From Mustelus asterias (lineage: Eukaryota), in the NCBI RefSeq assembly GCF_964213995.1, contig NW_027590191.1, positions 1 to 64,000 of the forward strand: a stretch of DNA of 64,000 nucleotides. Direction: 5' to 3'. Below the pieces are notes generated by a model that saw only the letters and a list, made by a program, of their open reading frames with translations, was not told the DNA's origin and searched no databases. Positions 18-31,520 of this stretch are shown here, one piece after another. How positions within the stretch are numbered: the first letter of the stretch is position 1; every line of letters starts with the position of its first letter. The position numbers were made by a program, and so were the translations under genes.

Positions 18-750
18 TTTCCATGTTTTTGCATTTTTTATTTAAAATCTCACTTTCCATTTTGTTACCCCCTCTCCCTCCACCCCACTCGGGCCATCTC
101 TTACATTTCCTTTGTTCTGCCGTTAACACATTCTGATCTCTTATTTCCTTTTTCCTGCCATTTACACATTCTGATCTCTTAATGGGCAGCCTTCTTAGCC
201 ATGATCACAACCAATTAAATTCCCTTTGTTTTTTTTTATTGATATGTGACACTTCTGTCACCCATACCACAACCATATCCCTCACCATTACAGTATAAAT
301 CTCGTCCAAACTTATTTGTCTTCAGCTCTGACGAAGGGTCATCCAGACTTTGAGCATTCGCTCTATTCTCTCTTCACAGGTGCTTTCAGACCTGTTGAGA
401 TTTTCAAGCATTTTCTGTTCTTGCTCAGATTCCAGCATCCGCAGTAAATTTGTTTATATAAAGAGGCACTTGCCAGACAGACTTGTCCCTGATATACAAA
501 AAAAATGCTGAAATAGAAACAAAGCGCCAAGTTATCATGGATAGGTTAGATTAAACTCCTTGCAGACAATCTCCCTGATGTTCTAGTGGTTAGGATTCGG
601 TGCTTTTATCGCAGCGGATCGATTCCGGCTCAGGGGATGAAGATTTATTAACTTCTTGTAGCACATGGTTTAAGTGGAGATGGAATTACTTCCTGATCAA
701 AAACATGAGTGATACTGGTGCCAGTTTCAACAGCAGAGAGAAAAATCTGT
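18..750 (+). repeat. Segmental duplicate, copy 1 (paralog of about 15058-15750); includes a Penelope-like terminal repeat remnant and a tRNA-Glu pseudogene
   Basis: Colinear similarity to 15058-15750, e.g. TTTAAAATCTCACTTTCCAT, CATATCCCTCACCATTACAGTATAAATCTCGTCCA and GGAATTACTTCCTGATC occur in both. Confidence 0.9.
572..637 (+). pseudogene. tRNA-Glu pseudogene
   Basis: TCCCTGATGTTCTAGTGGTTAGGATTCGG...TCGATTCCGGCTCAGGGGA matches vertebrate tRNA-Glu with a 6-nt deletion in the variable/T region and a mutated anticodon loop. Confidence 0.85.
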
Positions 751-934
751 CGAGTCGTCAATCAATGATCACCATTGATGAGAAATAGATATCCGGTTGT
801 GAAACTTTCAATGTGCGGATAATGAGCAATGTGCAAATTTATCGATAGGGCAGTTTCCAGTGCCCGGATCTTAGGAGATGTTTCAGGAAATTCAGCCGTT
901 TAAATATCTCGTAAATATGAGCGTTTATTTTAGT

Positions 935-1235
935 CATTTGTGAGACTTAGACGTCACTGGCTCTCGTTGGAGGGCAGTTGAGAGTCAACCACATTGCGGT
1001 GGCTCTGGAGTCACATGTCGGCCAGACAAGGTAAGGGCGGCAGATTTCCTTCCCTAAAGTACATCAGTGAACCAGATGGGTGTTTCCGACAATCTACAAT
1101 GGTTTCATGGTTTCAGTAGATTCTAAATTGTTATTGAATTCAAATTTCACCATCTGCCGTGCTGGAATTCGGACCCGGGTCCCCAGAATATTAACTGAGT
1201 TTCTGGATTAATAATCTCACGATGATGCCACTAGG
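935..1235 (-). mobile_element. Shark SINE-like interspersed repeat (family B)
   Basis: Core GGCTCTGGAGTCACATGT..GGCCAGAC..GGCAGATTTCCTTCCCTAAAG recurs at about 19520, 30830, 45240 and 61850. Confidence 0.7.
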
Positions 1236-1444
1236 CCTTCCCCTCTTTATTCATGATGTGACCTGATTTTTAAACTGTCTATCACACTTTCCAATCTCTT
1301 CCATTTCTATTTCAATAGTTTATTCATTTTCTGACCACTTCTATGATAACTGAACTTTCCTATGTTCTGTTTTCCTCTCACTCAGTCGAGTTTACATGTT
1401 CCCTCGTTCCTCTTCTCCATCTGTTTTCAACTATCTTCACTTCT

Positions 1445-2737: not shown

Positions 2738-2776
2738 GGTTTTTGTATGGGACCTTCCTGTGTTTGTTACGCTGTG
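2738..2776 (-). other. V(D)J recombination signal sequence, 23-bp spacer (V1)
   Basis: Minus strand CACAGCG (2776-2770), 23 nt, ACAAAAACC (2746-2738). Confidence 0.93.
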
Positions 2777-3058
2777 GCTCATGGCACAGAGATAGGTGGC
2801 AGTGTCTGTAACTCCGGCGTCTCTCAGAGTCAGGGCACTGAATTTGTAGCCTCCACCGATTGAGGCAGTGATCCTCCCGCTTGGATCGGTTTCTCTTGTG
2901 GCCATCACCAGATGCTGGGGTGGCTGATTCGGGGACTGTCTGTACCAATGTATGTTGCTAAATGTAGTGGTCGTGGTGCAGTTCATGGATACGGTTCCCC
3001 CTTCACTAACAACCTTCCGCCGAGGAAGCTGCATCACCTCATCTGCTCCAGTCACCCC
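2777..3058 (-). pseudogene. T-cell receptor alpha/delta-type V segment V1; open V exon but apparently broken splice acceptor and leader
   Basis: GVTG-ADEVMQ...VSMNC...HWYRQ...DTATYLCAMS followed by a 23-RSS; the polypyrimidine tract ends in CACGG rather than CAG; candidate leader (ATG 3532, donor GTGAGC 3478) is frameshifted. Confidence 0.8.
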
Positions 3059-5301
3059 CGTGCAGGTCAGAGAGGAAAGCAGCAAAGAGAATCTCTAAAT
3101 TCGGAGCATTTTTCAGATCATATGAAATTTCTGCTGAAGCAGTTATCCAGGGAGTTCAGATTGGAACCAGGACCTGGGTTTAATATTCGGAAGAATTTAC
3201 AAGGAGTCAAATGCCTGCTTCGTGTCCAACTGAGGCGTCTATCTGTCGAACTGATGAAAGAAGCTGAGACTCGGGTTTTATCCGCCCACACTCACTGGCA
3301 TCGATTCTACTGGAATCGGAGATGAAGAATTGAAGCCGGACTAAATAAACCCCATCGGCAACCCCATGTTTCCGGTTACAAATCTCTCCCCACGTGTCTA
3401 ACTAGGAAACCATTCGCCCTTTCAGAACACTGAGTGAACCCAGCTCGGGGTGAACCCATTCACTGGCAGACAGCTCACCAGCTACCAACCCCAAAGCATG
3501 ACTGAGGACACAGGGAAATGCAGTGAGAGCATTCCGAGACACGGCAGCAAAATATACAGGGTGAAGCTTGGAAAGGGTGTCTTCAAACATCCAACTCCAC
3601 TTTGCAACAGGGAATGAACAATGTTATTCCATATTGGCACTTCATCAACCGGATGCCAGTTCCAACCATCCAGTGACTGAACTTCCCCGAGACTCACAGA
3701 GGCCAGCGCCTGCCGTAAGTGCAAGTCACCACCAGATGGTGATATTGTATTACTTTAATCGCAAGTGAAACTGCAGTTTGAAGTCACAGCTGAGTTTGGT
3801 TTTCTTGATATCAGCTGGCCTGGAAGAGGGCAGCCCAACATCATCACCACCATTTGAAAAGCAATTAGGAAATACATTCGGGACTCAACAACGAAGCCCA
3901 CACTCGGTCAAATTAATTTTAAAATAGTTTGTTTTGGAGATATTTGTGGTGTCTCGTCCCCCAGTGACCGAGAGTGGGGCGGAATTTCTATCAGTTTTAC
4001 GCTGTCTGAGCTGACCATATTTGGAGAGCTCCCTGATCACAAATACCATTCCAATAAAGCTCCTTCCGGACTGTTCAAGGCCAGTTGTGTGCAGAGTATT
4101 ATAGCATAGTGGGAAAGATATATAAAAAAACATAACCTATTTGAATAAAACAGAAAAAATCCATATAATTCATTCCTGGAATTATACTGTTTTTCCGTTA
4201 TCATCGCTGGTTCAGTATAGAATGTGCAGAGGTTAATTCCAAACTAAAATGATGTTTCCTTTGTGACAGGGACAAAAACGTGGGAGATAATATTAATAAA
4301 CTCCTCAAGGTCTCCTCAGAAATGATGACATTATGCCTTTTTGTCACCATCATGTTATTTGGTCTGTGATATCCTCTTCCCCAGAAATCAGTGGTGGCAA
4401 GTTCATTGAAAACAATTAGGACGGGGTGAGGTCGATTATTGAATGACCAGGGAGTCAGAGTATACAGGGGAGACATGGACAGACAGATGTCACAATTCAA
4501 TCCACCAGGATCTTATCAAATATCGGGCAGTCTCGAGGTGGCACAGTTGCCTACCCCAGCTCCGAATTTGGATGTTCACATGGCCACAAGTGGACTTATT
4601 ACATTATTTGATTACAAGTCGCCTTTATACAGAAGTTAAACGTCATAAATGCACTCATGATATTTTAATGTGCTTTTTGTCTCCTTTACTACCCTTTCCC
4701 CGCCTGCCCGCCTATGAAACAACCATTTATCATCTCCTCCCTCACTCTCCAGCAGCTTACAACTGGTCTGTTCAGAGCTATATTTAATCAGTGCGTGTTA
4801 CTGGATCAGAAACAGCGTATCTGCAACCAACATGTTCCACAAAGTAGTAACTGAGAATTGATAATGAGCTGCTTGTGCTTCAGGGTGTCTCCTGAGGCTA
4901 ATCTTGTTTCCCCTTTTCCTTTAACTATTGTTTTTCTGATGATCATTAACAAACCAACCCACACAGCAGAACGCTGTCTCCCACCAGGACATTGGCTGCA
5001 GCACAGATCGAGGTGTTTCCTTTCACTGACATCCAGCTCACACAGGACGTCGGATCATTGAGGGCGGGGATTATAACGGGTGGTTTCAGTTATAATTATG
5101 TGATGTTTGTCTGTTCCACTGCAGTTGTGCAGTTCATTTTCTCAGTCTCTCCTGCTAATTGTTGGCTGACAGTTTGATCCGAGGTCAATTTGGTTTCCTC
5201 TCGGGTGTGTATCTGAGCGCCTGCGAGGGCCGCTGCACTGCAACAGCTGCCGTCCAACTTAACGCTCAACAGAACAGAGCGCGCACCAACAATCCAAAGG
5301 C

Positions 5302-5340
5302 AGTTTTTGTGCAGGGGTGAGACTGCTTTCCATCACTGTG
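5302..5340 (-). other. V(D)J recombination signal sequence, 23-bp spacer (V2)
   Basis: Minus strand CACAGTG (5340-5334), 23 nt, ACAAAAACT (5310-5302). Confidence 0.95.
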
Positions 5341-5795
5341 ATAGCTGGAAAGCGCAGTAATACACGGCGACATCAGTCAGCTGCAGATCCGAAACGGTTA
5401 AACTGGTGAATTTAGTCGATGTCTGAAGCTCGATAGAGAAACGGTTTTTGGCTAAATCTGCTTTTTCTTCACGATTGTATGTATTTTTCCACACGATAAA
5501 CTCGGGATGGTTTCCTGGGAGTTGTCGGTACCAGTGAAATACATAGCTGCTCTGTGTAGTTTCATAGTTGCAGGTTAATATGAGCGCTGCTCCTTCTGCC
5601 TTAACATCTGAGGGTAGCGGCTGAGTGACAGAATCTCCATGACTTAAATCTGGAAAATAATATATCAATAAGGAAAAGTTTAGTCCGGTGGCTGATTGAA
5701 ATTTGATTCCAATCAAGCTTGGGGAATGAAGGAGCGCATCCACATTTACCTGTCAGAAATATTCCGCACACAACCCAGATGCTGAGCAGCCGCAT
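5341..5795 (-). CDS. T-cell receptor alpha/delta V gene segment V2, apparently functional (leader exon 5795-5750, intron 5749-5650, V exon 5649-5341)
   Basis: Leader MRLLSIWVVCGIFLT with phase-1 GTAAAT donor; TTTTCCAG acceptor; V exon DSVTQ...LTC...HWYRQ...DVAVYYCAFQL with both Cys and the Trp; consensus heptamer. Confidence 0.93.
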
Positions 5796-6344
5796 TGTCT
5801 CTGTCCGCTCTGTGAAAGGGGAGGGGGTTGGATATTTAGCCAACCGTTCTAAACCCCGCCCTCAATAATCTGCTGCCGTGTCTCAGGCTGTACTCACCTC
5901 ACCTCCTTGCTTTTCCATTGGTGCTGTGAGGCCGGCAGATAGCAAAGAGAATCACCCCGAGCTGCATTACAGTCACTATTCTTGCAGAGAAAATGCTTCC
6001 CAATTATCCACCAGAGTTGGGGAAGGAACACCTTCACCTTAATTGTACTAAAGAAAGTAAATAATTTTTGAATGAATTTGTCACTTTGTTTTCACGGATT
6101 TTGCTCCACTATCAGCGTAGTGATAACCATGACTGCAGTGAAATTCCTCTCACGGGCTTTAATTATTATTAATACATGAAGTAATGTCAGCGTTACTGGG
6201 AAGTCCAGATTTCAACTCCATTCCTAATTACCCTTGAGAAGGAGAGGGGATGTGCAGGTTCTTAAACTGCTGTGGTCTCTCCGGACTATTAACATGGTGA
6301 AAGAGGATGCGTAGCACATCTAGCTTTTCCAGTAATAGAAAGTT

Positions 6345-6580
6345 CCTCCCGGTGCTGCTGTTTCATCCCAAACTCCAAAGCTATGCAGGTTGGTGGATTG
6401 GCCAAGCTCACTTACCCCTTAGTGTCCCAAGATGTGTGTGTAGGTTAGGGGGATTAGCGGGCTGAATGTGCAGGCTTCTGGGGATAGGGCCTGAGTGGGA
6501 TTGTTGTCAGGGAGTCGGTGTAGGTTCAATGGGCCAAATGGCCTCCTCCTGCACTGTAGGGATTCGATGTTTCTATGATA
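6345..6580 (+). mobile_element. HE1-like shark SINE, partial
   Basis: GGATTGGCCAAGCT..CCCCTTAGTGTCC...GGCCAAATGGCCTCCTCCTGCACTGTAGGGATTC, same family as the full copy at 23589. Confidence 0.75.
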
Positions 6581-7589
6581 TTCAGGCAAGAAGATTTGAA
6601 AAAATGGAAAAGCATTGACTGTAGGAACCTGCAGCCGACATTGGAGCACGGTCATTGTCGCATCACACGTCACTATAGGTAACACACTCCAGTATATTCG
6701 ACCGTTCTGCTCTCAATGTTGAAAATGTTTTAAAGGCGAATGTTTTATTGAGAATGTCAATATCGAGACTGAGCTGCCGACCAGTGCTGTTGCTGAGGAA
6801 CTTTTGGCCATAGTTCCGTAGATGCCTGTTCAAATACCTATTTTTGGTTGCATTGAACTGCGTTGCAATCATTAATGTCCATTTATGTTAGGTATGAAAG
6901 TAAGTATCTGGCATATATTCACTGAGAGCGAGTCAATATCCCAATGCTAAAACTCGAGTAAAGCTGAAACGCCCTCTGGTGGCATTTGTTCGAATTATGA
7001 GCCTCAATGTTCCACTTCTCCCTGAGAGATTGCACAGGACTGTGTTGTGGTGTGGGAGATCCTCATACTTGGACAGTGTGCCTCGTGCAGTGGGGAAGAG
7101 AGTTATATTTTACTCTGAGAGATTTGGTTTGAAGCGCAGATTGGACACAAGGATGGATATCCATTTTGCCGGATGGGGAAAGGAGTTTGGCAAAGTGATA
7201 ATTTGTTCATATTTTATTCAAGATTCATTTTAAAAATTCAGAGAACATTTCACAGAAACTTTTTTAAAAAGTTCACAGAAGAGGACATAACGATTGATTT
7301 TCATATTGAGAACAGAGCACGTGTGCTCTGAGCTGCCCAATATATGTACAACTGTGACAGACACCAAAAACAGAAAACAGGAGCTCAACATAAAGAAAAG
7401 GAAACAATTGTGTATGTTGCGAAAAGATGAAAACAAAACATTGATGTTGCAGGCATCTGTCGCTCAGCAATGTGCAATGTAGGAGAAGTTGAACTGGCTG
7501 ACAAACTGTCCTCCAGATTCCCACTTCATGATAAATTTCAATAAAAGGTCGTTTCACAAATCAATCCTCAGCAATGGGAAGGAAGAGCA

Positions 7590-7653
7590 TGGATCCACCG
7601 AAACTTAAACCTGGATCGCTGGATCCAGAGTGCTCACAGTTAGACCAGCAATC
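7590..7653 (-). pseudogene. tRNA-Gln pseudogene (anticodon loop deleted)
   Basis: Reverse complement of tRNA-Gln: GGATCCACCGAAAC..GGATCGCTGGATCCAGAGTGCTCAC. Confidence 0.75.
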
Positions 7654-7762
7654 GGCTTCAAATTGTCGCTTAAAGCAATTGACCCACTTGTTGTTGCTGC
7701 CGCATTGAATGAAGGAGGTCACATGCTTTGAGTGACTATTTGCATCTGGCCGCTCTGTTCCT

Positions 7763-7834
7763 GGTTAAGTGGTGCGATGGTGAACACTCTGGACTCTGAA
7801 TTCAGTAATATGAGTTCGGATCTCGGTGAAACGT
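7763..7834 (+). pseudogene. tRNA-Gln(CTG) degenerate copy
   Basis: GGTT..GTGGTG.GATGGTGAACACTCTGGACTCTGAA...GAGTTCGGATCTCGGTG; acceptor stem mispaired. Confidence 0.8.
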
Positions 7835-8039
7835 TCCTTTTATTTGCTAAAGCCGGTGATTGGTTTGCTGAAGGACATTTTATTTGAAATTCTCAGAAAG
7901 TGAATTTTGGACTCTGAGGAAATTTCAGCAAATTCCAACGCAATCACATTGCAGACGATGCAGCGAATGATTCTCCTGGTGTTATTGCTTCAGCCCTCGA
8001 GGACGATTGCTCAAGAAAGCAAAGAGCTCGGGGGCAGAA

Positions 8040-8330
8040 TCAAAAATTCCCTGCAGTGCAGAAGGAAGCCATTCGGCCCATCGAGCCTGCGCCGCTAACA
8101 ATCCCATCCTGAACCTATCCGCATATACATACCCTCTTAGTCCTTCTGACACTACGGGCAATGTAGCATGGCCAATCAACCTACCCACACACCTTTGAAT
8201 TCTGCGCCGGATGCCCAGCGTCCTTCCACACACGCAGACACGGGGAGAATGTGCAAACTGCAGAAAGTCACTCGAAGCCAGAATTGAAACCCGGTGCCTA
8301 ACACTGTGAGGCAGCATTGTGCAACCGTGC
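8040..8330 (-). mobile_element. HE1-like SINE inside tRNA-Gln unit 1
   Basis: GCCATTCGGCCCATCGAG...CACGCAGACACGGGGAGAATGTGCAAACT. Confidence 0.8.
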
Positions 8331-8423
8331 CAGAAATGCCACAGAGGGCAGGGGTTCCCCAACCGGTATCATTCACTGAGCCCTTTCTCCCAATTTAAAC
8401 AAGACTTAGAACGGAAAGAATAG

Positions 8424-8495
8424 TGGCTCCAACGAAATTGGAACTCAGTTTGCTTGATTCACAGTCCAGAAAGCTAACCAGTTCACCATAGAACC
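8424..8495 (-). pseudogene. tRNA-Gln-derived pseudogene (anticodon mutated to GTG)
   Basis: 72-nt alignment to the tRNA-Gln reverse complement with many substitutions. Confidence 0.75.
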
Positions 8496-8664
8496 CACAG
8501 GCCTCTGGTTTGAGGCAGCAGGCCATTTTCCCAGATCTTTTTCTTAGTCACAGACACACACACACACACACACACACACATTTTCTGCAATGTGCATTGT
8601 CATTGAAGTTGAACTGGCTGTCAAATTGTCCTCTCGATTCATACTTTGTGAGAAAGTTAAACCT

Positions 8665-9010
8665 CGGTTGCCTCGGGAAAGCAGCCAACATAATTAAGCA
8701 CCCCTCGCACCCCGGACATTCTCTCTTTCACCTTCTTCCGTCGGGAAAAAGATACAAACGTCTGAGGTCACGTACCAACTGACTCAAGAACAGTTTGTGC
8801 CCTGCTGCCGTCAGACTTTTGAATGTACCTACCTTCTATTAAGTTGACCTTTCTCTGCACCCCAGCTATGACGGTGACATTACATCCTGCACTCTCTCAT
8901 TCCCTTCCCCATGAACGTTATGCTTTGTCTGTATAATGCGCAAGAAACAGTACCTTTCACTGTATACTAATACATGTGACAATAATAAATCAAATCAAAA
9001 TCAAATCAAA
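8665..9010 (+). mobile_element. Rex1/Babar-like LINE 3' end
   Basis: Encodes KAANIIKHPSHPGHSLFHLLPSGKRY; ends in AATAAATCAAATCAAA tail; same family as 28530-30120. Confidence 0.8.
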
Positions 9011-9053
9011 CATCATCTCGCAAATCAATCATCAGAATTGGCAAAGAAAAACA

Positions 9054-9125
9054 ACGTTCCAAGGAGATTCGAACTCAGATTGCTGGATTCAGACTCTAGA
9101 GTGCCCACAATTTCACCACAGAACC
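9054..9125 (-). pseudogene. tRNA-Gln(CTG) degenerate copy
   Basis: GAGATTCGAACTCAGATTGCTGGATTCAGA.....AGAGTGC..CACCACAGAACC. Confidence 0.8.
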
Positions 9126-9167
9126 AAATGCGTTTGGTGACGATTTGCAAGTGGCGCCCGTGTTCCC

Positions 9168-9239
9168 GGTTGTGTGGTGTAACGGTGAGCATTCTGAACT
9201 CTGAATCCAGTAATCTGAAATCAGATCTCGGTGGAGCCT
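9168..9239 (+). pseudogene. tRNA-Gln(CTG) degenerate copy
   Basis: GGTTGTGTGGTGTAACGGTGAGCA...CTCTGAATCCAG...TCTCGGTGGAGCCT; B-box broken. Confidence 0.8.
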
Positions 9240-9445
9240 CGCTTTCCTTTACTAAAGCCGATGATTGGTTTGCGGAAGGGTATTTTATTTATAATTGGCA
9301 GAAAGTGAAATTTTAATCTCTGAAGAAATTTCAGCAAATTCCACCGCATTTACATTGCAGACGATGCAGGAAATGATTTCCTAGCTTCATGGCTTCAGCC
9401 ACAGAGGACGATTGCTCAAGAAAATGAGGAGTTCGGAGGCAGAAT

Positions 9446-9740
9446 CATAGAACCCTTATGGTGTATAAGGAAGCCATTTGGCTCATCTACCCGGCACCAG
9501 CAGCAATCGCACCCAGTCTCCATCCCTGTAATCCCGCATATTTACCCAGTTAATCCCCTGACTCTAAGGGTAACGTAACATGACCAATCAACCTAATCCG
9601 CACATTTTTGTCTAAAAGGACGTGTGCTCGGTTTTCTTCCGCACATACAGACACGGGGAGAATGTGCAAACTGCACACAGTCACCCGAAGCCAGAACTGA
9701 ACACGGGTCCTGTTACTGGGAGGCAGCAGTGCCAACCACA
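9446..9740 (-). mobile_element. HE1-like SINE inside tRNA-Gln unit 2 (same site as in unit 1)
   Basis: Follows GGCAGAATC as in unit 1; CAGACACGGGGAGAATGTGCAAACT core. Confidence 0.8.
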
Positions 9741-9810
9741 GTTATTCTACCGATATAATTCGCTGAGTCATCTGCCCCAAGTTAAGCAGGAGTTCGGGCG
9801 TTGAGAATAG

Positions 9811-9882
9811 TGGTTTCATTGAGATTCGAGCTCGGATTGCTGGATTCAAAATCCAGAGTGCTCACCGTTACACCATGGAACC
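9811..9882 (-). pseudogene. tRNA-Gln(TTG) degenerate copy
   Basis: Minus strand GGTTCCATGGTGTAACGGTGAGCACTCTGGATTTTGAATCCAGCAATCCGAGCTCGAATCTCAATGAAACCA; T and acceptor stem mismatches. Confidence 0.85.
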
Positions 9883-10180
9883 AACTGGGCGCTGTTTTAA
9901 TGCGGGAGGTCTTTCACCCAAATCTCACACAAACACACTCTTGCTCAATTATTGCCAGGCTCCAGTCGGGTTTTTGTTTGACACCAACTGCTCCTCTGAT
10001 TCGACAGAACGTCAAAGAGTAGCGAAAGATGAAAAAAGAAAAACACTGATGCTACAAGCATCTGGCGCCAGAGTCTCAGCAATGTGTATTGACAAAGTGC
10101 CCTCTCGATTCGTACATGGTGACAAATGGAGAATAAATGTCATGGAGAAAATCAATTATCAGCATTGGTAAAGGAGAGCA

Positions 10181-20520: not shown

Positions 20521-21911
20521 CAACCACCCTCCCCCCTACCGCCCCCACACCCCCGCTACCGGCCCTACCGCTCCCCTCCCCCTCCCCCCACCCCCCCGGC
20601 CACCCAGACATGGTAAAAGAGAAAAGATGGAACAAACGTCATTTACTGATTCTAATGTTTCATGTCTGCCGCATGAAAAGGGTTTTTTAGCCGAAATGTA
20701 CTTCCACAAATCAGGTTATAAAGTTAAATCAGACTGTACTGTTGGACCATCTCGTCGCTTTTATCCTGAGCGGACTTTGTGTACTGAAGGGATAATCACA
20801 TTCTATTCATATTTGCGCAGGTCCCAGGCGCTAAACGGGGCGGAAATGTTGTCAAAACTCACTGCTCTGAAGTTTCCGAATTGAAGTTTATTGTGAAATG
20901 TGAACTGAATTAGGTATCAATCGAAATATTTAATATTTACTCTTCACCATTTCATAGAAAACAGACACAGCTAAATCGCCAGTCCTTTTTGCTGGCAGGG
21001 GATGTTTGGAGAGTGGGGGCTGGAAGATTGCTGCTTCTCCCTGTCTCACTCACCGTGTAACGGAAAAATAGAGAATAATTAATGAGTTTGTTAGAATGGA
21101 ATAATTGAATGGATTTCTAATGGGTTAGTTAAGTCTAACAGTCAGAGCCCATCCATTGCAGACACATCCATGTCACCGGGAATCAACTCTCCTACAACTG
21201 TCAGACAGTTCACCCTTCAATCTCCTTCAATCTCCTCTGGTTCCGGTTCCCAAAGAGTTTCTAAAGATTCGCAAAGCTTGAGAGTGTTTTCTGGTTTGAT
21301 TCCTTCTCCATTTTCCCCACCTGCCAACTGACAATATTTTCCAAAATCTCCGCTCAATCATTCGCCTTGCATCATGTCCAGGGATGAGGAAATTCAGTTT
21401 TGTGGTGAGGTAATAGAGACCGGGACTGTACTCTTGAGAGCAACGTTAGTGAGATAGAGATTTCATGGAGCTGCAGGGAGAATTGGATGATTTGGAGAAC
21501 TCCTCCAAGGAGACAAAGATACGCGGAATGACCTCATTCGCTAATCAAAGATTCTATGATTCTCGTTGTTTCATGTCGCAGTCGCTTTATTTATTGTTAG
21601 ACACCTGAACAATGAGCAGGCGCAGGATGATCAGAGACTTCTGTCGAGTCAACTGGCGCTCTTTCCGGCCCAACAGTTCCGAGTGCAGCTGAAAGTCAAC
21701 GCGCGCTTCACTCAATATTGAGTCTGCGGTATCCCCACCCACAGCTTCCGTTTGCTGCTCTCACTCTGAACCGATTGTGTGATTGGACAGATTGCTGGCG
21801 TTGCGCCATTCCTCTCATTGGTTGGATAAGCAGTGCAATGGGACGGGGATCTGTACTTCTGTCTCTGACAGAGGATTTCTCTCACTGCTGAGTTACAGAC
21901 TGAGGAGGATC

Positions 21912-22422
21912 ATGGATAACTGACTCACTAAGACCCTCATCGTTATCTCACTCCTCAGTAAGGTTTTTTTCCTTCCCAGTAAAACTACATGCTCCTGCTG
22001 ACAGCTGAAACCCAGATGATATTGTTGCTAAAACATCAGTGATGGTGGAGATTATAATTGTATCGCTTAACATGAGGCTGACTCTGAATGTCATTATTGT
22101 TGTTATTTCTGTTAGAATGGAGCCATCAAGACAAAGTGGAACAACTGGGTCCTGAAATATCGGTTAAAGAGGAAAGTAATGTGACACGAACCTGTACGTT
22201 GGAAACTAGTCATTCTAATCCTTATGTATACTGTTATAGTCAGATTGCCTGGAAAGCGGCAGTGTACATGTTTCAGTTTATTGGAGCGCATGTGCAAAGG
22301 AACTCCGACCTCAATGATCGGGTTGCGTCTAAATTTGAATAAAAACCGAACAATACTAGCGAGCTAACGTTCATTAACACACTGATTTTCGACAGCGCCG
22401 TGTATTTCTGTGCCATGGAGCC
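21912..22422 (+). pseudogene. T-cell receptor alpha/delta V pseudogene V3 (leader 21912-21957, V exon 22116-22422)
   Basis: Leader MDN*LTKTLIVISLL with GTAAGG donor; V exon QDKVEQ...TC...YVYCYSQ (Trp lost), TAA at 22340, DSAVYFCAMEP. Confidence 0.9.
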
Positions 22423-22462
22423 CACACTGCTGCAGAGATATATCGAATGCGGTACAAAAACC
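22423..22462 (+). other. RSS of V3 (24-nt spacer)
   Basis: CACACTG, 24 nt, ACAAAAACC. Confidence 0.85.
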
Positions 22463-22644
22463 CCACACTGGCAGTTCCAGTCAGTAGCCAGCAGGGTGCG
22501 CTCACACACGCGCGGCAAATACAGTTTCCACAGAGTGACGGAGTTTCCTAACATTGCAGCAAAAAAACACTCAAAACATCTACTGGTGTGTCCAGTTGCA
22601 CAGTTACATTAATTGATGCACGTTACTTATGGTTGTAGAATCAT

Positions 22645-22800
22645 GAAATCATAAAATCCCTGCAGTGCAGACGGAGACCATTCAACCCATCGAGTCTGCG
22701 CCGACCACAATCCAACCCACGCCCTATTCCCGTAACCCCACATGTTTACCTTGATAATCCCTCTTCCACTCGGGTTAATTCAGCATGGCCAATCAACCTA
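22645..22800 (-). mobile_element. HE1-like SINE 3' part
   Basis: CCCTGCAGTGCAG..GAG.CCATTC..CCCATCGAGTCTGC...CATGGCCAATCAACCTA. Confidence 0.75.
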
Positions 22801-23588
22801 ATTGATATAAGATTGATCAATCGATCTGAGATACATTAAGTGGTTTTCCGCCTTTCTCTGCCTATTTGCTACTGACTGATTTATGAAAACTATGCCCATT
22901 TCCATTTCCCAGTCTTTAACGTAAACATTTAATGCTTTTTCTGTTACCTTGGAGATTCATTCAAACCTCTCCAATCTGGCTGCTCGGCTACTCGGTCCAG
23001 CTTTCCATCCACATCACTGATGAAGATTTCGCTTTGTATTGAATCATTTACTAACCCTGACACTCCTGGTGCTGGTCTGCAGTATGGAATTAATATTCGG
23101 CTGCCGCTCCTTCAGAGAGGCAAAGTTATAGAATTTCCAAAGTGACATTGGTATTGAGTTCAGCTCTTTGCAGATAAACCCTACCTGTGACCACACTACC
23201 GATGTTAATCCCTCACCCACAGCTTTCCTGTGCTCTACTAACTCTGATCAGTTTCAGCTGTGCTGTTTTGTTAGAGACGTTATTGTAGATACTGATGGTT
23301 GCTGCTTTTTCCTGTTTGGCACTGTTTGCATCAGCAGCCCAATGGGGTGGCAAGCTATACTTCCACTCTGAAAGAGGATTTCACATACCGCAAAGTAACA
23401 AATTCAGGGAACATCATGGAAATATCTCAGACCATTCATTATTCTATCATTTCTTATCAAGTAGATGCTCCAACTACAAAAGGGTCATCCTCCCCCCACC
23501 ACACCTGCTGTCCCAAACATGATTAATAACAAACTGCTTCTCATGTTGCTGTAAGGATGGATATTGTCATTCTCCATGTCAGAACAGA

Positions 23589-23923
23589 GGCGGCACGGTA
23601 GCACAGTGGTTAGCACTGCTGCTTCACAGCTCCAGCGACCTGGGTTCGATTCCCGGCTTAGGTCACTGTCTGTGTGGAGTTTGCACATTCTCCTTGTGTC
23701 TGCGTGGGTTTCCTCCGGATGCTCCGGTTTCCTCCCACAGTCCAAAGATGTGCGGGTTAGGTTGATTGGCCAAGCTAAAATTGCCCTTAGTGTCCTGGGA
23801 TGCGTAGGTTAGAGGGATTAGTGGGTAAATATGTGGGGGTAGAGCCTGGGTGGGATTGTGGTCGGTGCAGACTCGATGGACCGAATGGCCTCTTTCTGTG
23901 CTGTAGGGATTCTAAGATTCTAA
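23589..23923 (+). mobile_element. Full-length HE1-like SINE
   Basis: tRNA head GGCACGGTAGCACAGTGGTTAGCAC...GGTTCGATTCCCGG, V-SINE-like body, CR1-like tail ending (GATTCTAA)n. Confidence 0.9.
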
Positions 23924-24819
23924 GAGCCAGCAGGACTTGGGATCAGTTTGTTGCTGAATTGACAGTTGAAGAGGAAAGTAATCCCCTGTCGTTGGATGAC
24001 CAAATTCACTTTGTTCCTTTCATTTCCGCCAATAGGATGAATCGCAGATTCAAGGAGCTACGAGATCATTGGTTGCATTGAAGAACAAAAGAACGAGAAG
24101 CCGATAGGATGTCATCTGAGGTAGTTTTCCGTAAACCAATAAAAAGGGGCCTGGATGTGACTCATCTTCTTCCCAACTCTTGACTAAAGCAACTTCAGCT
24201 TCAACCCGCTCTGGTCAAATCCGCCGCGAACTCGCCGCAAACATGTCTCCTGTTATTCCGTATTTATTCCTCACAGCGGCAGCAAGTTGCTCAAGTCTGT
24301 GTTACACATCGTAACCACTCAGTATATTCTGCCGGGCAGCTCGCTCAGTGCAACGGGGAGGAGAAGGTGACCAGGGAATGGATTGATCCCAACATCGAAA
24401 TGTTATCTGGATCTCGCTGGTCTCAACGCTGCACAGATGGGATTAGGCCAACTTCCCCCTGGGAATGAGAGAGAATGATTTGGGCTGAGATTCAAGCTCG
24501 TCTGATACCAGTGAATGACTTTGGCAAACATCAAACTTCACACACACAGACCGTGAGCAAGTTCCAGTTATAGGGACTGAAGGCGAGGACCTGATCTTGT
24601 TCGAAAGAATAGAATATTTATGATGGAAGTTTTATTTAATCACCACAAGCGCCTCCCGCTCCACCCACTGAACTGCGTTATTTTTGACTGCGATTATTGT
24701 TCAAGCTGACGGCTGATTCAGCGGTGGGATGGGGTGGGGGTTGTGGGGGGGAGGGTTAATGGTATGGGGACAGAATGAAGTCTCTTTATTTAGTTTAATA
24801 CTTCTTTGGGTTCATACAG

Positions 24820-25122
24820 GACATTGTGGAGGAGATTCTGTTTCACAGGCATTGGCTGCAGTCACAGTCACTGAAGGAGATGATGTTCAGTTGTTCGGTC
24901 ATTAGTCCACTTCAAGCAACACTCCTTACTTATTCTGGACCGTCAGTAATCTAGTGGCTCCTTGGAGTATCGACTGTTGAGATATAGATACAGCGAGGAC
25001 ACTCAGAGATCACTGAGAGACTGTCTTTCACTGGAGCTCAATGATACATCCCGCACTGTCCCGCTGAAAGTGTAAGAAACAGAGCTGGCAGACTCCGGAG
25101 TGTATTACTGCGCACTGACTCC
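24820..25122 (+). pseudogene. T-cell receptor alpha/delta V pseudogene V4
   Basis: After CATACAG acceptor: HCGGDSVSQ...VTVTEGDDVQL, stops and frameshift around FW.RQ, then ELADSGVYYCALT. Confidence 0.88.
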
Positions 25123-25161
25123 CACAGAGACACAGAGCAGGGCTGAACCGGTACAAAGACT
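25123..25161 (+). other. RSS of V4, 23-bp spacer
   Basis: CACAGAG, 23 nt, ACAAAGACT. Confidence 0.85.
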
Positions 25162-28129
25162 CTCAGAGCCTCACTCAAGGTAGCGGAACTTTCGGCAAAT
25201 ATTGTGATCAGCGTGAGCCTGAAATGGAAACTGAAATCGTGGTGATTTCTCAAACTTTTAATTCTAGAAATGCTTTCATTAATAATAAATATTTGACCAG
25301 AATAACGAAATGGCGACAGTTCGAAGAATTTACGTTAGAATATACATAGAGTTTGATGTCCCAAAGTGTTTCCCCGTCACGATGGAAAACACAGCTGCCA
25401 ATTTGGACCCAGCATATCATTTCATCCAGTAATATTGCAGTGTTCTGTCTGTTTCAGTGATTGTGATTGATGAACAGATATCGAACAGGACATTTCTCCT
25501 GCTCTTCTTGGAAGCAATGGCCATGTGATGCATCACGTCCACCTGAGAGGGAAGACGGTGTCCTCGATTCAACAGGTCACCGAGTGGCTGGTGGCTCTGA
25601 CGGTGCAGCATTTCCTGAGCACTGCACTGTCTCCTCGGTAAGATCCCGGAGTGTTGTTCCTGACTGACTGCCGGTGTCCTGCGGAACGGAAAGAATCTCT
25701 GAACCGACTGGAGAAGGTATCCTGGAAATTCCAGGAGGTGGTGACCACTCATGAACCCAATCCTGGAAAAAATAGTGAAATGAAAGCAATACAATTAAAA
25801 ATGAACTTCACTGGGCCCCGTAGAAACAGGAGGACAACGAATTTACTCCTAGAATCAAATTTCACACGAAACGAGAAACTATTTTACTTTTATTGCGGCT
25901 TTTACAGATTCCAGATGTCCTAAAACACTTTCTAACTGCCGGAAGCTCATTCCCAGTGTAATCGCTGCTGTTATGTTAGAAACTGTATCAACGCAGAGAG
26001 CAGTGGGAATGTTCAATTATCAGTCAGAAAGGACTGTCACTCTGACCCTGGAGTAAAGGAATTGGGGAGTCCAGGAATTTCTGGGCTACTTCGATCTTGT
26101 CACAAACAGTAACCAAATGGACACCTCTTTCTCTTTCTCTCGGTTTCTCTCTCTCTCTTTATGCTACATTGAGGAACCACGTTGATTAGTAACATTGTGC
26201 TCATCGTCTTATCCATACTACCCAGCGACATTGGAATACATTGATTAATAAAATTCAATCTGAAAGCCTGCTGCGCCACCCTCCACATCTTCCAGAGGTT
26301 TCCATTAGATTGGTCAATGATTTTGCCTGAAAAAATACTGCAGCAGTTTCCATTACCTCCTGCAATATCACCAATGAGGAAACTCACCAGCTCTTACCAC
26401 CTGTCATTCAGCAGATTGGAAGAGTTTGAAAGCTGATCATCAACCTGTGCAATCGGAAAAGGATCACACATTCTGTAGACATAAGGTCCTGAAGTGGGAT
26501 TGGAACCCGAAGCTTCTGGTCCAGAAGACATCGTTCTGTGTCGGTGCTCCCATAATTCAAATAGAGACTCTTGTCCAAAATAAAATGTGTTTTCTGGTAG
26601 TGTCGCGACGCACAGATATTTTCTGTAACTCCAGCCGTCACCTGTAATCGCGGTGAACTGATGGATCTGCAAGTTTTATTCGCAGATGCTATGGAGCGCC
26701 ATCTAGTGGAATCTTGTCTGTGAAGAAGCAATTATCAATATGTTCCCCAATATTGCTGCATGATATTGCTGTGTTATTATTATTATGGCAGTTTATTTTA
26801 GGTTTTATTACTTTGATATTATTTCTGCATCTGATGTCTTTTTCACAAAATTTGCTATTTATGATTGAACTGAGAACATTTATCACAGTTTCTGACGCGC
26901 CTACTTGGATCGCACAGTACGTGTTCATTTCGATAAATAGATGAACTGAATGAAGTCACAACTCCACATGTGGCAATTTTGTATTGTTCATTTCGGAAGA
27001 ATGGAAGTTCCGAAAGCTCCTTAACATCAAACATAGATGCCGACCAAATAGCAATAAGCCAATTTACCAAAGAGCGATTTTTTTTTCTCACAGTGGTTTA
27101 CATTAGAAATAATAGCGACCAGACGGACTAACCGGATTTCCTTCCAACCGTTTCCAAACTTCCTTGATTGGGAACAAATCTGTCAGACCATTTCTGGACT
27201 TTCCCTCCCCTGGTGAAACGGTTTCCATTGTTGAAGCGTCTGTTCGGGATTATCATCTCCCCACCCTGCTTCATCTCGCTCGGTCTCTCCTGTCTTTGAT
27301 CTTAACCAGAAACGAAAGAAGATTCAGGAAACCGAACCAACTGCTTGAACTGTGCACTCAGCAATGATGTGTGTAGATTTATTCATGTGTTCTATAATCC
27401 ATGTGACTGATGATAAATATTGGATTTTTAAACTGTTTCACAAGAACAATAATAGACCCTCATTTTCTGCATCTAAGCCCTGGATTATTTTTCCTTCTTG
27501 TCTCCTCTAAATTAATATTTCGTTCTCAGTTTCTTTCGCTTCTCCACTATACAGTTTGCATATTTATATTTCTCGGAAAAAAGATACGGCGGTTTTTGGT
27601 TGTACTTCAGACAGAGCAGAATATTATGGGTGTCCTCCACCAGTCCCGTAGCATCAGAGGAAAATACACTGACAAGACACGCTGTGAATTTGCACTATTT
27701 TATGTTTTTTTTTTCAGGCCAACCATTAGTTCAACGAAGATAAACGCATTAATGCACTGAGAGCAGCCTGGTGTCCCCAGGGAGTGAGTGTTGGGGAAGA
27801 GAGATCACTGCGCTAAATATCGTTTAAATTGGTTATGGAAATTACAGGAAATAATCCAAAGAAAAAATAAGTAAGAATGGATCCGTCCCCAACACACCCA
27901 TTCCCAGTTACCCCATTCTTTTACCATGACCAATCCACCTCGGCTTTGAATGGTCCTACTTTATATAAAGCTGCCCTTTCTCTTCATCCTAGCTATGACT
28001 GTTACACGATATTCTGCACCCTCTCCTTTCATTTCCACCCCCCGCCCCCTCTACACTATGAAAAAGGCATGCTTTGGCGGTATAGCACCAGACACAGTGC
28101 TTTCACATTGGGACCCGCACACTGGTTCT

Positions 28130-28250
28130 GGGACTTGCCCTGCCAATCGGTCCTCACTTAGGGCACTAATGTCAATGTTGAAACGCCTGAGCTCCCAGGC
28201 AATGTCAGCACAACACCATTCCGGTCTGTCCCTGTTGGGATTGTCCATGA
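28130..28250 (-). mobile_element. RTE-clade LINE endonuclease N-terminal fragment
   Basis: MDNPNRDRPE...ELRRFNIDISALSE.RL.G is typical of the RTE APE domain start. Confidence 0.65.
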
Positions 28251-28529
28251 GGGCCCTGACATTTCAGATCCAAAGCTTATTTCATTTTTGCAAAAATGTA
28301 CTTCATTTGTAAAATATCTGGAAGAAGATTACAAACATTTCAAACTGGCCATCACGCGAAGTATAATAATATAAAGTTTCTATACATATATCATATTGCA
28401 ATCTGAGCTGCTTCAATACAGTCAAATAAATATTGCTGACATTGCAAAATGGTCATTACGAATGGTACAAAGGTATTTCAGTTTTTTTACACTCTGTTCT
28501 AGATGGTGGTGATTACCCCCGTGTTCTCT

Positions 28530-30120
28530 TGATTTGATTTGGTATGATTATTATTGTCACTTGTAATAGCATGCAGTGAAAAGTATTGTTTCTTTCGCAC
28601 TATACAGACAAAGCAAACCGTTCATAGAGAAGGAAGCAAGAGTGTGCAGATTGTAGTATTATAGTCATAGCAAGGGTGTAGAGAAAGATCAACTTAATGC
28701 AAGTTCAGTCCATTCACAAATCTGACAGCAGCAGGGAAGAAGCTGTTCTTGAGTCAGTTGGTACGTGACCTCAGACTTTTGTATCTTATTCACGACGGAA
28801 GAAGGTGGAAGAGCGAATGTCCGGGATGCCTGTGGTCCTTAGTTATGCTGTCTGCTTTGCCAAGGTAGCAGGAAGCGTAAACAGAGTCAATGGATGGGAG
28901 GCTGGTTTGCGTCATGGACTGGCTACATTCAAAAACTTTTGCAGGTTCTTGCGGTCTTGGGCAGAGCAGGAGCCATACCAAGCTGTGATACAATCCGAAA
29001 TAATGCTTTCTATGGTGCATCTCTAAACGTTGGTGAGAGTTGTAGCTGACATGCCAAATTTCCTTAGTCTTCTGAGAAAGTAAAGGCGCGTATTTCGTAA
29101 CTGCAGTGTCAGCATGGAAGGACCAGGACAGTTTGTTTATGACCGAGACACCTAGAAACTTGAAGCTCTCGACACTTTTCTATTTCATCCCCATTCATGT
29201 AGACAGGGGCATGTTCTCCTCTACGCTTCCTGAAGTCGATGACAATCGCCTTCATTTTGTAAACATTGAGGGAGAGATTATTGTCACCGCACCAGTTCAC
29301 CAGATTATCTATCACATTCCTGTACTCTGTCGCGTCATTGTTTGAGATCCAGCCCATTGTGGTGGTGCCGTCAGCAAACTTGAAAATCGAGTTGGAGGGG
29401 AAGTTATCCACACAGTCATCGGTGTATAAGAAGTATAGTGAGGGGCAGAGAACACAGCCTTGTTGGGCACCGGTGTTGAGGATGATTATGGAGGTGGTGT
29501 TGTTGCCCAGCTTTACAGATTGTGGCCTGTGCGTTAGGAAGTTCAGGATCCAGTTGCAGAGGAGGAGCCGAGGCCCAGGCCACGGAGTCTGGAGAAGTGT
29601 TTCGTGGGAATAATGGTGTTGAAGGCTGAGCTGCAGTCAATAAATAGGAGTCTGACATAGCTGTCTTTGTTATCCAGGTGTTCCAGGACCAGAGAGATGC
29701 CGTCTGCTGTGTACCTGTTGCGGCGGTAGGCAAACTGTAGTGGATCCAGGTAGTCCGGGAGGCTGGAATTGATTCCTGCCACGACTAGCCCTTCTGAACA
29801 CTTCAAAATGATGGATGTCGGAGCCACTGGACGATAATCATTGAGGCACGCTGCTTGGTTTTTCTCAGGTATCGGGATGATGGTTGTCTTCTTGTGGCAG
29901 ATAGGGACTTCAGATTGCTGTACAAAGAGGTTGAAGATGCCTGAGAATACCCCCAAAGATCAATCCCGGTTCAAGCTGATTCGCGCAGGATCTGAGTGCT
30001 CGTCCGGGATCCCCATCAGGGCCAGTCGCTTTCCGTGGGTTGACCTTCGAGAAAGCTACTCTGACATCTGCAATGGTGACCTCAGATACAGGTTCATCCA
30101 AGGCTTCTAGGTGGAGGGAA
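28530..30120 (-). mobile_element. Rex1/Babar-like LINE, 5'-truncated, frameshifted
   Basis: KATGPDG, CLNDYRPVA, LDPLQFAYR, SSAFNTI and KFADGTT motifs across ORFs 29910-30125, 29543-29956 and 29109-29411; ATCAA tail. Confidence 0.9.
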
Positions 30121-30149
30121 CGCATTGTTTCTGTAGTGCAGTGATTATC

Positions 30150-31520
30150 ACATTCACCAAATGAAAGTTTCCCGTTTCGAAAGCGGGCAGAAACATGTGT
30201 GAATGCTTTTAACCTCAGAGTGAGGAAAAGAACAATAATTCACGTTTACTTTTGAATATTAACTGAATACTTGATCTTACACTGTGTTACATTTACCCTT
30301 CCCCTTCACAGTTCTGCACACGTTCAAACTGACACAAAGTTTTTCACTGACTCTCGTTTCCAGCTGTGACCATTCAGAAAGTTTCCCTCAAACCTGCACA
30401 TTCCGGCTGATTGCAGTTGATTTGTGTCGGATTATTAAAGTCTCCTGCAGCAACACCTCAGTTAATAACAGTCACTGGAAGCCCCATTTCAGACGGGGAA
30501 ACACGCCCAACAAAGATGTTCTCTTCTCCGGTTCCACAGTGGGACAGGGACACGAGCAGGATTTTACCCCGCACTCTCCAATCACCCGCTGCCAGCAGAA
30601 ATTCGCGACTGCAGATGCATCTGTACGTTGTTTTAAACTCAGAATGTGGATCAATCATTTATTGTTGAAAATTAACTGAATGCAGTATTTTGCCCTTAAT
30701 GTTGCATTTCCCCATCCCTCTGCAGTTCTGTGTCCACTCAAACCCAATATTTTTAACTCAGACCCGTTTCCAGCTCTGACAGTTCAGAAAGCTCATCTCA
30801 AACATGCACATTCCGGCTCCTTCTTTCGTTCGTTCGTGGGACATAAGAGTCATTGACCAGTATTGATCGTCCGTCACTAGTTGAGAAGCAACTTTGCTGT
30901 GGCTCTGGAGTCACGTGTAGGCCAGACCAGCACATTCACTCCACTAAAGGGCATTAGTGAATCGTGCTTTTCCAACAAGGGACAGTGGTTGCATGGTCAT
31001 CAGTGGATTATTAATTTCAACCTTCTTTATTTTATTTAACTTCCACCAGCTGTCGTTGCGATCCCCAGAATAATACCACTGGGTCATTATCTCACCTGAA
31101 GCATCTGCGTCCGGGGAGACTCGAACTCAGAACCTCGGAATAACCCGCTGACTTCACTGCTGAAAAAGTACCGCGAGCTAACGGTTGCGCCACTGGAGCA
31201 CTGTTTTCGACTGATTTGCGTCCGGTTATTAATGGCTTCAGCAGTTTCATCTCCGTTAACAGTCACGCAAAGTCATATTTCAGTCTGGGAATCAAACCAT
31301 CAATGATTCGCTCTTCCACGTCTCCACAGAGAGTGAGACAGGCAGAAGCAGCAGGATATCAGTCCGCATTCTCCAATCACCCAATCGTTACCAGCAGAAA
31401 ATGACGACTGCAGCTTCAATCAGCGGGTTGCTGCTCATCCCTGGGACACAAGACTCAACCCAATTCAAACCTCCCAATACACCGAACACACGCTCAGCAA
31501 AAAATACATAGATTATACCC
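30150..31520 (-). repeat. Inverted segmental duplicate of about 18870-20200
   Basis: CATCCCTGGGACACAAG (31436) is the reverse complement of CTTGTGTCCCAGGGATG (19106); CAATACACCGAACAC versus TGTTCGGTGTATTG; shares the tRNA-Ile and the family B SINE. Confidence 0.88.
31106..31199 (-). pseudogene. tRNA-Ile(TAT) intron-containing pseudogene
   Basis: Minus strand GCTCCAGTGGCGCAACCGTTAGCTCGCGGTACTTTTTCAGCAG...; anticodon and acceptor stem mutated. Confidence 0.85.

What the first reader, a model, noticed from the sequence alone, without database searches (positions are those of the whole stretch)
572..31199. TCR V gene segments interleaved with a dense tRNA gene and pseudogene cluster
Seen: four RSS-bearing TCR alpha/delta-type V segments (2.8, 5.3, 21.9 and 24.8 kb) flank about 20 tRNA genes and pseudogenes, with intact-looking Gln-CTG, Glu-CTC and Ile-TAT among them. 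Known: tRNA genes and TFIIIC B-boxes can act as chromatin boundaries and replication pause or fragile sites; tRNA clusters neighbour the human TRA/TRD locus and the extended MHC. Inference: Pol III units lying inside a V array may have co-amplified with the V segments, could affect V accessibility or locus contraction, and may reflect an old TCR-tRNA linkage.
Basis: partly seen in the sequence, partly recalled or inferred. Interest (0 to 1): 0.8.

Follow-up and report, generated by a model that had tools for sequence, protein, structure and literature searches.

The report
Shark TCR segments co-amplified with tRNAs
In a shark, four T-cell-receptor variable segments flank about twenty mostly decayed tRNA gene copies, and this block was copied many times within an immune-gene region that also holds 19 intact copies of a likely TCR-delta constant gene; the tRNAs are likely passengers rather than regulators.

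Summary
In detail: four RSS-bearing TCR alpha/delta-type V segments (one fully intact, one open, two broken) and 20 tRNA-gene-derived elements, about three near-intact. tRNA density is above background (Rfam: 6 in 64 kb; 0 in 280 kb sampled elsewhere). Co-amplification is shown: 9 of 13 close paralogs of the 5.3-kb V carry the same tRNA-Gln block.

A regulatory role is not supported. Intact V paralogs exist without tRNAs, decayed copies drift like spacer DNA (3.5% against 3.8%), and no tRNAs were found in 400 kb around D-J-C units. An old linkage could not be tested.

The window belongs to the known elasmobranch antigen-receptor complex (IgM clusters with scattered TCR V segments), here heavily duplicated. 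The larger surprise lies outside the window: 19 intact copies (18 distinct) of a likely TCR-delta constant gene, where published shark maps list at most one. Three are NAR-TCR miniclusters with a germline-fused V-D, resembling TCR-mu. Copy number and expression are unverified.

The scan earlier noted scattered Vs in this genome and a NAR-TCR minicluster in another; I found no note on the tRNA block or the copy count.

The parts
2738..3110 (-). V1: TCR alpha/delta-type V exon (open) with 23-RSS at 2738-2776; leader not resolved
5302..5795 (-). V2: intact TCR alpha/delta-type V gene (leader, intron, exon 5342-5644, 23-RSS 5302-5340)
   Evidence: best single-V relative is a Heterodontus protein at 65%
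21910..22462 (+). V3: V pseudogene (stops in leader and framework 3, Trp lost, RSS with 24-nt spacer)
24820..25161 (+). V4: V pseudogene (frameshifts and stops) with degenerate 23-RSS
572..635 (+). decayed tRNA-Glu copy (77% to best local copy)
7595..10559 (.). eight decayed tRNA-Gln-type copies on both strands (7595-, 7762+, 8425-, 9056-, 9168+, 9810-, 10180-, 10490+); most share 3' flanks, so DNA-level duplicates; the 10180 copy is a Gln body with a TTC anticodon
11276..11347 (-). tRNA-Gln(CTG), near-intact; T6 run 44 nt downstream; identical in 5 of 9 paralogous blocks
   Evidence: (65.5 bits)
13615..15646 (.). decayed Glu (13615-, 15580+) and Val (13882-) copies
16752..16823 (-). tRNA-Glu(CTC), one change from the paralogous copy (anticodon-stem mismatch); no T4 within 80 nt
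   Evidence: (50.4 bits)
18190..18254 (-). tRNA-Asn(GTT) pseudogene with a 9-nt deletion
19360..19454 (+). intron-containing tRNA read as Ile(TAT), near-intact; T4 run 42 nt downstream (isotype label from the sequence and recall)
   Evidence: (50.5 bits)
19956..20102 (.). two Val remnants in opposite orientation
30126..31199 (.). decayed Val (30126+) and Ile-type (31113-) copies
5082..31792 (+). segmental duplication unit, repeated at 99.1-99.8% about 330 kb away on the same contig (the match runs to the end of the DNA fetched); donor switch near 5700-5900

Best explanation
The window is one copy of a repeatedly duplicated block in which TCR alpha/delta V segments sit beside a mixed tRNA gene cluster inside a shark antigen-receptor complex, and the tRNAs are likely passengers of that duplication rather than regulators of the V segments. 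Shown: the V-tRNA block recurs at many places, the copies are mosaics of one another, and most tRNA copies have decayed. Inferred: unequal crossing-over and conversion between near-identical blocks drive birth and death of both gene kinds; a few tRNA genes stay functional under ordinary selection; the intact V rearranges to one of the many D-J-C (delta) units or to the J-alpha array of the complex.
For: 9 of 13 close V2 paralogs carry the same Gln block; 3 lack it and 1 lies at a contig end. The six exact full-length Gln-CTG copies each lie 5.7-6.0 kb from a V2 or close paralog. The window switches from 0-1% to the C71:8.10 Mb block to 0.2-1% to the C159:334 kb block near 5.8 kb. Decayed Gln copies diverge 158/4502 (3.5%) against spacer 1997/51965 (3.8%), while the RSS diverges 2/429 and Gln-CTG 12/648. 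5 of 5 distant V paralogs have no tRNA-like element in about 9 kb upstream. 0 tRNA-like elements in 400 kb around D-J-C and J-alpha regions and in 130 kb over three IgH-cluster regions. On C159 1-284 kb the 10 Vs are no closer to tRNAs than circular shifts give (p = 0.37). Only 38 of 88 decayed copies keep the B-box core. IgM clusters, NAR-TCR cassettes and zinc-finger genes share scaffold C71, as in PMC12227049 section 6 and Table S1.
Against: A and B boxes of decayed copies are slightly spared (16.4% and 16.2% against 20.4% non-CpG mismatch; nominal p 0.004 and 0.03), though copies are not independent and references differ by isoacceptor. On the C71 grid, two of the three tiles with tRNA-like hits also held a V, so V fields and tRNA patches do tend to coincide. 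No chromatin or expression data were available. Background samples are small, hand-placed tiles, and the BLAST library is biased to local isotypes. Some near-identical copies may be haplotype duplicates or assembly chimeras.
Confidence: 0.68

Rival explanations
1. The tRNA genes and leftover B-boxes act as TFIIIC-bound boundaries or open-chromatin anchors that tune V accessibility or long-range contraction in this dispersed locus.
For: Slight sparing of A and B boxes; Gln-CTG conserved across blocks; density above background. TFIIIC and tDNA barrier activity is an established theme (search listing only).
Against: Intact V and RSS without tRNAs in 3 close and 5 distant paralogs; 50 of 88 decayed copies have a broken B core; no positional coupling; none near D-J-C.
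Confidence: 0.1
2. The tRNA cluster helps drive the instability: dense similar copies on both strands, or Pol III fork pausing, seed the breaks and unequal exchanges that amplified the complex.
For: Gln copies occur in both orientations, with internal duplications of about 800 bp at 70-73% identity; several block boundaries lie near tRNA copies (homology ends at 7415 and 31792).
Against: The one mapped donor switch lies at the V2 leader and promoter (about 5.8 kb), 1.8 kb from the nearest tRNA copy; the 31792 end is only the end of the DNA fetched; the tRNA-free delta D-J-C units are amplified just as strongly.
Confidence: 0.1
3. The tRNA cluster is an ancient neighbour of the TCR alpha/delta locus, kept since the jawed-vertebrate ancestor. 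This can hold together with the passenger reading.
For: Contigs of three other organisms match spacer and decayed-tRNA pieces of the block, e.g. 550 nt with 34 differences across the Gln-TTG copy. Local isotypes include Pro, Leu-AAG, Thr-TGT and Arg-ACG types, which I recall near human TRA/TRD (recalled, no call).
Against: No contig bridges V and tRNA. These isotypes occur in many vertebrate tRNA clusters (recalled). The histone-tRNA co-cluster described for sharks and rays is elsewhere: none of the best 150 of 734 histone candidates is on C71 or C159.
Confidence: 0.25
4. Most of the multiplicity is an assembly artefact (uncollapsed haplotypes or chimeric contigs).
For: Many copies are on unplaced contigs; C850 equals C71:12.27 Mb (0.0%); two C-alpha forms are present, so haplotypes may be retained; the window is a mosaic.
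Against: 18 distinct C-region sequences differ by 0.1-11%, with different intron lengths; a diploid gives at most two per locus; three lie on one scaffold at 93-98% over long blocks; unassembled contigs of run X1 hold several forms, one with 23 differences in 179 nt (X1 may be the source sample).
Confidence: 0.12

Closest known systems
Elasmobranch antigen-receptor complex (AgRC), Flajnik et al. 2025, PMC12227049 (abstract, passages, section 6, Table S1 read)
   Same: TCR alpha/delta and NAR-TCR V segments scattered in both orientations among IgM clusters over megabases (white shark chr 27, 8.2-17.1 Mb in Table S1); the same mix is on C71.
   Different: The paper's main text has no word 'tRNA' and describes TCR alpha/delta as a translocon; Table S1 lists at most one delta C model per species, against 19 copies here.
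Clustered, abundant tRNA loci of sharks and rays, Squalomix preprint 10.1101/2025.06.08.657570 (passages and section 6 read)
   Same: Elasmobranch genomes are rich in tRNA loci that cluster on a few chromosomes.
   Different: The cluster described lies with histone genes; this one lies with antigen-receptor genes and shows no histone hit. It is a mixed, mostly decayed cluster, unlike the regular tandem arrays on C16 and C11.
Marsupial and monotreme TCR-mu clusters, PMC7615758 (passages read)
   Same: Repeated cassettes, each with two V domains and its own C; the second V is pre-joined or of low diversity. Three delta copies here read NAR V-D-J, supporting V fused to D, J segments, C.
   Different: Here the second V is joined to D only and keeps a 23-RSS; the genes are shark NAR-TCR delta, so the likeness would be convergent; expression is untested.
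tDNA/TFIIIC chromatin barriers (search listing only; otherwise recalled)
   Same: Clustered tRNA genes with A and B boxes next to regulated genes.
   Different: Most boxes here are broken and no binding or barrier activity is shown.

Membership tests
TCR alpha/delta V segment | V-set exon with conserved Cys, Trp and YYC motif | tested here: met
   V1 and V2 match Pfam V-set; V3 and V4 are recognisable but broken
TCR alpha/delta V segment | 3' RSS with 23-nt spacer | tested here: met
   23 nt in V1, V2, V4; 24 nt in V3
TCR alpha/delta V segment | Closest relatives are chondrichthyan TCR alpha/delta V | tested here: met
   For V2: 51-65% to shark and ray proteins, two named TCR alpha-like and one a full V-J-C chain; no tree was built; alpha versus delta use cannot be told
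TCR alpha/delta V segment | Rearranged and expressed in T cells | not testable with these tools
   No repertoire data were reachable
Elasmobranch AgRC | TCR V segments linked to IgH clusters, NAR-TCR and TCR alpha/delta J-C | tested here: met
   Met for paralogous blocks on C71; contig C159 itself is unplaced and showed no C exon in 284 of 803 kb
Elasmobranch AgRC | Synteny with PSMB5 and UrIg2 | not tested
   Not searched
Elasmobranch AgRC | TCR alpha/delta as a single translocon with one delta C | tested here: not met
   19 C copies; none found directly upstream of the J-alpha array at C71:18.4 Mb, where sampled tiles at 18.0-18.37 Mb hold zinc-finger genes
TCR delta constant (the 19-copy gene) | C1 domain plus TCR alpha/delta-type transmembrane exon | tested here: met
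   Pfam C1-set over cut-off; TM exon matches human alpha (30.9 bits) and delta (30.5 bits) equally, so it does not separate them
TCR delta constant (the 19-copy gene) | Preceded by D (12/23 RSS) and few J segments, unlike alpha | tested here: met
   6 of 19 examined: free D plus 3-4 J in 2, V-fused D plus 2-3 J in 3, J without a D found in 1; a separate C follows a long J array at two places
Functional tRNA gene | Cloverleaf, intact A and B boxes, T-run terminator | tested here: inconclusive
   Gln-CTG and Ile-TAT pass Rfam and have T-runs at 44 and 42 nt; Glu-CTC has a stem mismatch and no T4 in 80 nt; 17 of 20 are decayed
Functional tRNA gene | Pol III transcription | not testable with these tools
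   No ChIP or small-RNA data
tDNA/TFIIIC boundary element | B-box conserved in non-functional copies | tested here: inconclusive
   16.2% against 20.4% mismatch; 38 of 88 intact
tDNA/TFIIIC boundary element | TFIIIC binding and barrier or looping activity | not testable with these tools
   Needs chromatin assays

The most novel reading that the evidence does not exclude
In this shark lineage TCR-delta has left the single-translocon plan: segmental amplification of the antigen-receptor complex produced about ten or more working D-J-C delta units per haploid genome, scattered among IgM clusters, V fields and a co-amplified tRNA cluster. Some are self-contained NAR-TCR miniclusters with a germline-fused supporting V-D, a shark counterpart of TCR-mu. 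Scattered Vs such as the window's would then have many nearby targets, raising an Ig-like locus-exclusion problem for T cells.
Probability: 0.5. Interest if true: 0.75.

Novelty: new variant of a known kind. Interest (0 to 1): 0.5.

Why it matters
The tRNA-V neighbourhood itself is mostly a record of how the shark antigen-receptor complex grows by block duplication. It offers a natural experiment, because near-identical V genes exist with and without the tRNA block. The multi-copy delta constant gene matters more. Shark TCR genes are described as translocons and shark Ig genes as miniclusters (PMC6795676 passages; PMC12227049 section 6). A shark with many intact delta D-J-C units, some TCR-mu-like, would show a TCR locus moving to cluster organisation and would make locus exclusion in gamma-delta T cells testable.

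Tried and rejected
Histone link: rejected; none of the best 150 of 734 histone candidates is on C71 or C159. Retroposed origin of the Gln copies: rejected; most share 3' flanks and longer duplicated units. ARAGORN at lowered thresholds gave too many chance calls to use. Word-index protein searches found nothing for V2. Pfam PF09291 found no C-alpha. PDB searches did not type the V or C beyond Ig-like, and the TM exon did not separate alpha from delta. Sequencing runs: no RNA holder listed among those holding the delta C stretch. Contig depth was not used as copy number. Minimum-energy folds of five tRNA copies were uninformative (z -0.2 to -2.1). A codon count for V2 paralogs included one distant paralog and is not used. 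Deiss 2019, Ott 2021 and Criscitiello 2006 were not held, and the supplementary PDF of PMC12227049 was not read; any of these may bear on delta C copy number.
Full report
Observation. An RSS scan of both strands found four sites in the 64 kb, each behind a V exon, at 2776, 5340, 22423 and 25123. V2 (5302-5795, minus) is intact, with leader, intron, open exon and 23-RSS. V1 has an open exon and good RSS, but its leader was not resolved. V3 and V4 are pseudogenes. The best single-V relatives of V2 are shark and ray proteins at 51-65%, some named TCR alpha-like. With a library of this genome's own tRNAs, BLAST gave 32 hits: 20 derived from tRNA genes and 12 SINE heads, which I set aside; a reversed control gave 0 (the SINE family name HE1 is recalled). 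Six pass Rfam's cut-off and five pass ARAGORN. Seventeen of the 20 form one block at 7.6-20.1 kb between the V pairs. Gln-CTG, Glu-CTC and an intron-bearing Ile-TAT are near-intact; Glu-CTC has an anticodon-stem mismatch and no nearby T-run.

Density against background. The window is the start of contig C159 (803 kb) of a 3.68-Gb genome. Rfam found 0 tRNAs in 28 hand-placed 10-kb tiles on other contigs, 6 in 15 of the 20 grid tiles of scaffold C71, all within three tiles, and 14 in 15 of the 20 further tiles of C159. The BLAST library found 68 elements in C159 1-284 kb, 13 in 4 of 20 C71 tiles and 1 in the 28 other tiles; the library is biased to local isotypes. Regular tandem tRNA arrays elsewhere are denser in intact genes, with 10 in 10 kb on C16. 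The cluster is therefore real, patchy and mostly decayed. Sharks are already reported to have many clustered tRNA loci (10.1101/2025.06.08.657570, passages and section 6).

Context. V2 has 1762 candidates in the genome. The 150 scored lie on 64 contigs, including C71 from 6.5 to 17.4 Mb in both orientations. C71 and the same unplaced contigs carry IgM-type C exons. At C71:7.05-7.36 Mb I read complete IgM clusters, a NAR-type V-D-J with its supporting V, other TCR Vs and then tRNAs. Zinc-finger genes lie in every tile sampled at 18.0-18.37 Mb. This is the antigen-receptor complex of Flajnik et al. 2025 (PMC12227049: abstract, passages, section 6 and both parts of Table S1), where TCR Vs lie between IgH clusters. 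Scattered Vs are thus known. The word tRNA does not occur in that paper's main text.

Co-amplification. Window 5082-31792 recurs at 99.1-99.8% on the same contig 330 kb away. Of 13 close V2 paralogs, 9 carry the same Gln block, 3 lose homology at window position 7415, and 1 is at a contig end; in the one of those three that I read further, an IgM cluster lies upstream. Of the 40 best genome hits, 30 for Gln-CTG and 34 for Ile-TAT lie on contigs that also carry V, IgM or delta C hits; this ranking favours recent paralogs. The window is a mosaic: left of about 5.8 kb it is within 0-1% of the C71:8.10 Mb block, and right of it within 0.2-1% of the C159:334 kb block over most bins. That fits exchange between paralogs, though an assembly chimera is not excluded.

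Passenger or regulator. Between paralogous blocks, decayed Gln copies differ by 3.5% and spacer by 3.8%, the RSS by 0.5% and Gln-CTG by 1.9%. Selection thus appears to keep the RSS and one tRNA, not the relics. Five of five distant V paralogs have no tRNA-like element in about 9 kb upstream. None was found in 400 kb around D-J-C and J-alpha regions or in 130 kb over three IgH-cluster regions. On C159 the ten Vs are no nearer to tRNAs than circular shifts give (p = 0.37). Against my reading, A and B boxes are slightly spared in 88 decayed copies (16.4% and 16.2% against 20.4%; nominal p 0.004 and 0.03), but only 38 keep the B core and the copies are not independent. No chromatin data could be examined. 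I put the passenger reading at about 0.68 and a boundary role at about 0.1.

Age of the linkage. Contigs from organisms B, C and D match spacer and decayed-tRNA pieces of window 5000-10700, but none bridges a V to a tRNA. The DNA is shared with relatives; the linkage is not shown. Histone clusters are on other contigs, so this is not the histone-tRNA supercluster. The human chromosome 14 parallel is recalled and untested. Searches listed no paper on tRNAs within a shark TCR locus; PMC3964593 and PMC10751288 (passages) do not contain the word.

The larger finding. Searching for the C gene that these Vs could use, I found 19 C exons and 19 matching transmembrane exons: three on C71 (7.14, 11.04, 12.27 Mb) and 16 on unplaced contigs. 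All 19 Ig exons are open. The transmembrane exon was printed intact for 18 and has no stop in the 19th. Over 4 kb, 18 are distinct: 16 copies differ by up to 3.0% (one pair identical) and three differ from them by 9-11%. The transmembrane exon matches human alpha and delta equally, so the delta label rests on layout. Of 6 copies examined upstream, two have a free 12/23 D and 3-4 J segments, one has J segments and no D found, and three (C436, C119, C96) have a NAR V-D-J, then a supporting V fused in the germline to the D with the D's 23-RSS kept, then J segments and C. A different C follows a long J array at only two places, C71:18.43 Mb and C546, 87% alike; this is likely C-alpha. Two haplotypes cannot explain 18 forms, so at least nine or ten loci are implied if the assembly is right. 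Unassembled contigs of run X1 hold several forms, while runs X5 and X8 from other organisms show one contig across the exon (X1 may be the source sample, and depth was not used).

Comparison. Table S1 of PMC12227049 lists at most one delta C per species, and a review states that cartilaginous-fish TCR genes are translocons (PMC6795676 passages). A newt has two delta clusters (PMC12698447 passages). [quoted passage not shown] Searches listed nothing on multi-copy shark delta C, but three key nurse-shark papers were not held. Earlier scan notes agree that scattered Vs are normal here and report a NAR-TCR delta minicluster in another genome; they are unchecked leads.

Verdict. The V-tRNA arrangement is real and co-amplified, and most likely a by-product of runaway segmental duplication of a known complex. 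As posed it is of moderate interest. The multi-copy, partly TCR-mu-like delta locus raises the overall score to 0.5, pending copy-number and expression tests.

Noticed in passing
G000 C71:7.14, 11.04, 12.27 Mb and 16 unplaced contigs (L077-L093, L101-L116): 19 intact copies (18 distinct) of a likely TCR-delta constant gene with J segments upstream where examined; published shark maps list at most one.
   Followed up: partly
L165:2380-3120 (C436), L171:5830-6560 (C119), L175 (C96): Self-contained NAR-TCR miniclusters: NAR V-D-J, supporting V fused in the germline to D-delta with its 23-RSS kept, J segments and their own C, resembling TCR-mu.
   Followed up: partly
C71:18.40-18.43 Mb (L094-L097) and C546:233-243 kb (L117): Two diverged J-array plus C (likely alpha) units, 76-87% alike over the C region; either very divergent alleles or two loci. 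The C71 unit is preceded by zinc-finger genes in all sampled tiles rather than by a delta C.
   Followed up: partly
window 46387-47436 (-): Open 349-aa frame of a rhodopsin-family GPCR (Pfam 7tm_1, 7.9e-18); earlier notes report orphan GPCRs in shark TCR regions.
   Followed up: no
window about 32000-45300 and 1439-2587: Retroelement remnants: reverse-transcriptase (37578-38642) and RNase H (39313-40098) frames, an envelope-like stretch near 32.4-33.7 kb seen by eye, and young 1.1-kb LINE-like insertions at 98-99% identity to other copies. No tRNA-gene copies were found in 31.2-64 kb.
   Followed up: no
window 5700-5900: Switch of closest paralog at the V2 leader and promoter: recombination between blocks or an assembly chimera.
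   Followed up: partly
window 10180-10253; C159:242404 and 265462; L030:4773: Anticodon-shifted tRNA bodies (Gln body with TTC or TCG, Cys body with GGA, Asn body with GCT), probably decay but miscoding if expressed.
   Followed up: no
C71:7.091 Mb (L068): Two stacked 23-RSS behind a supporting V-delta; an earlier scan note describes such stacks.
   Followed up: no
C16:97.2-98.6 Mb (L019) and C11:103.4 Mb (L020): Regular tandem tRNA arrays (Lys-TTT with Thr, 1.8-kb period; Cys-GCA), unlike the mixed cluster in the window.
   Followed up: no
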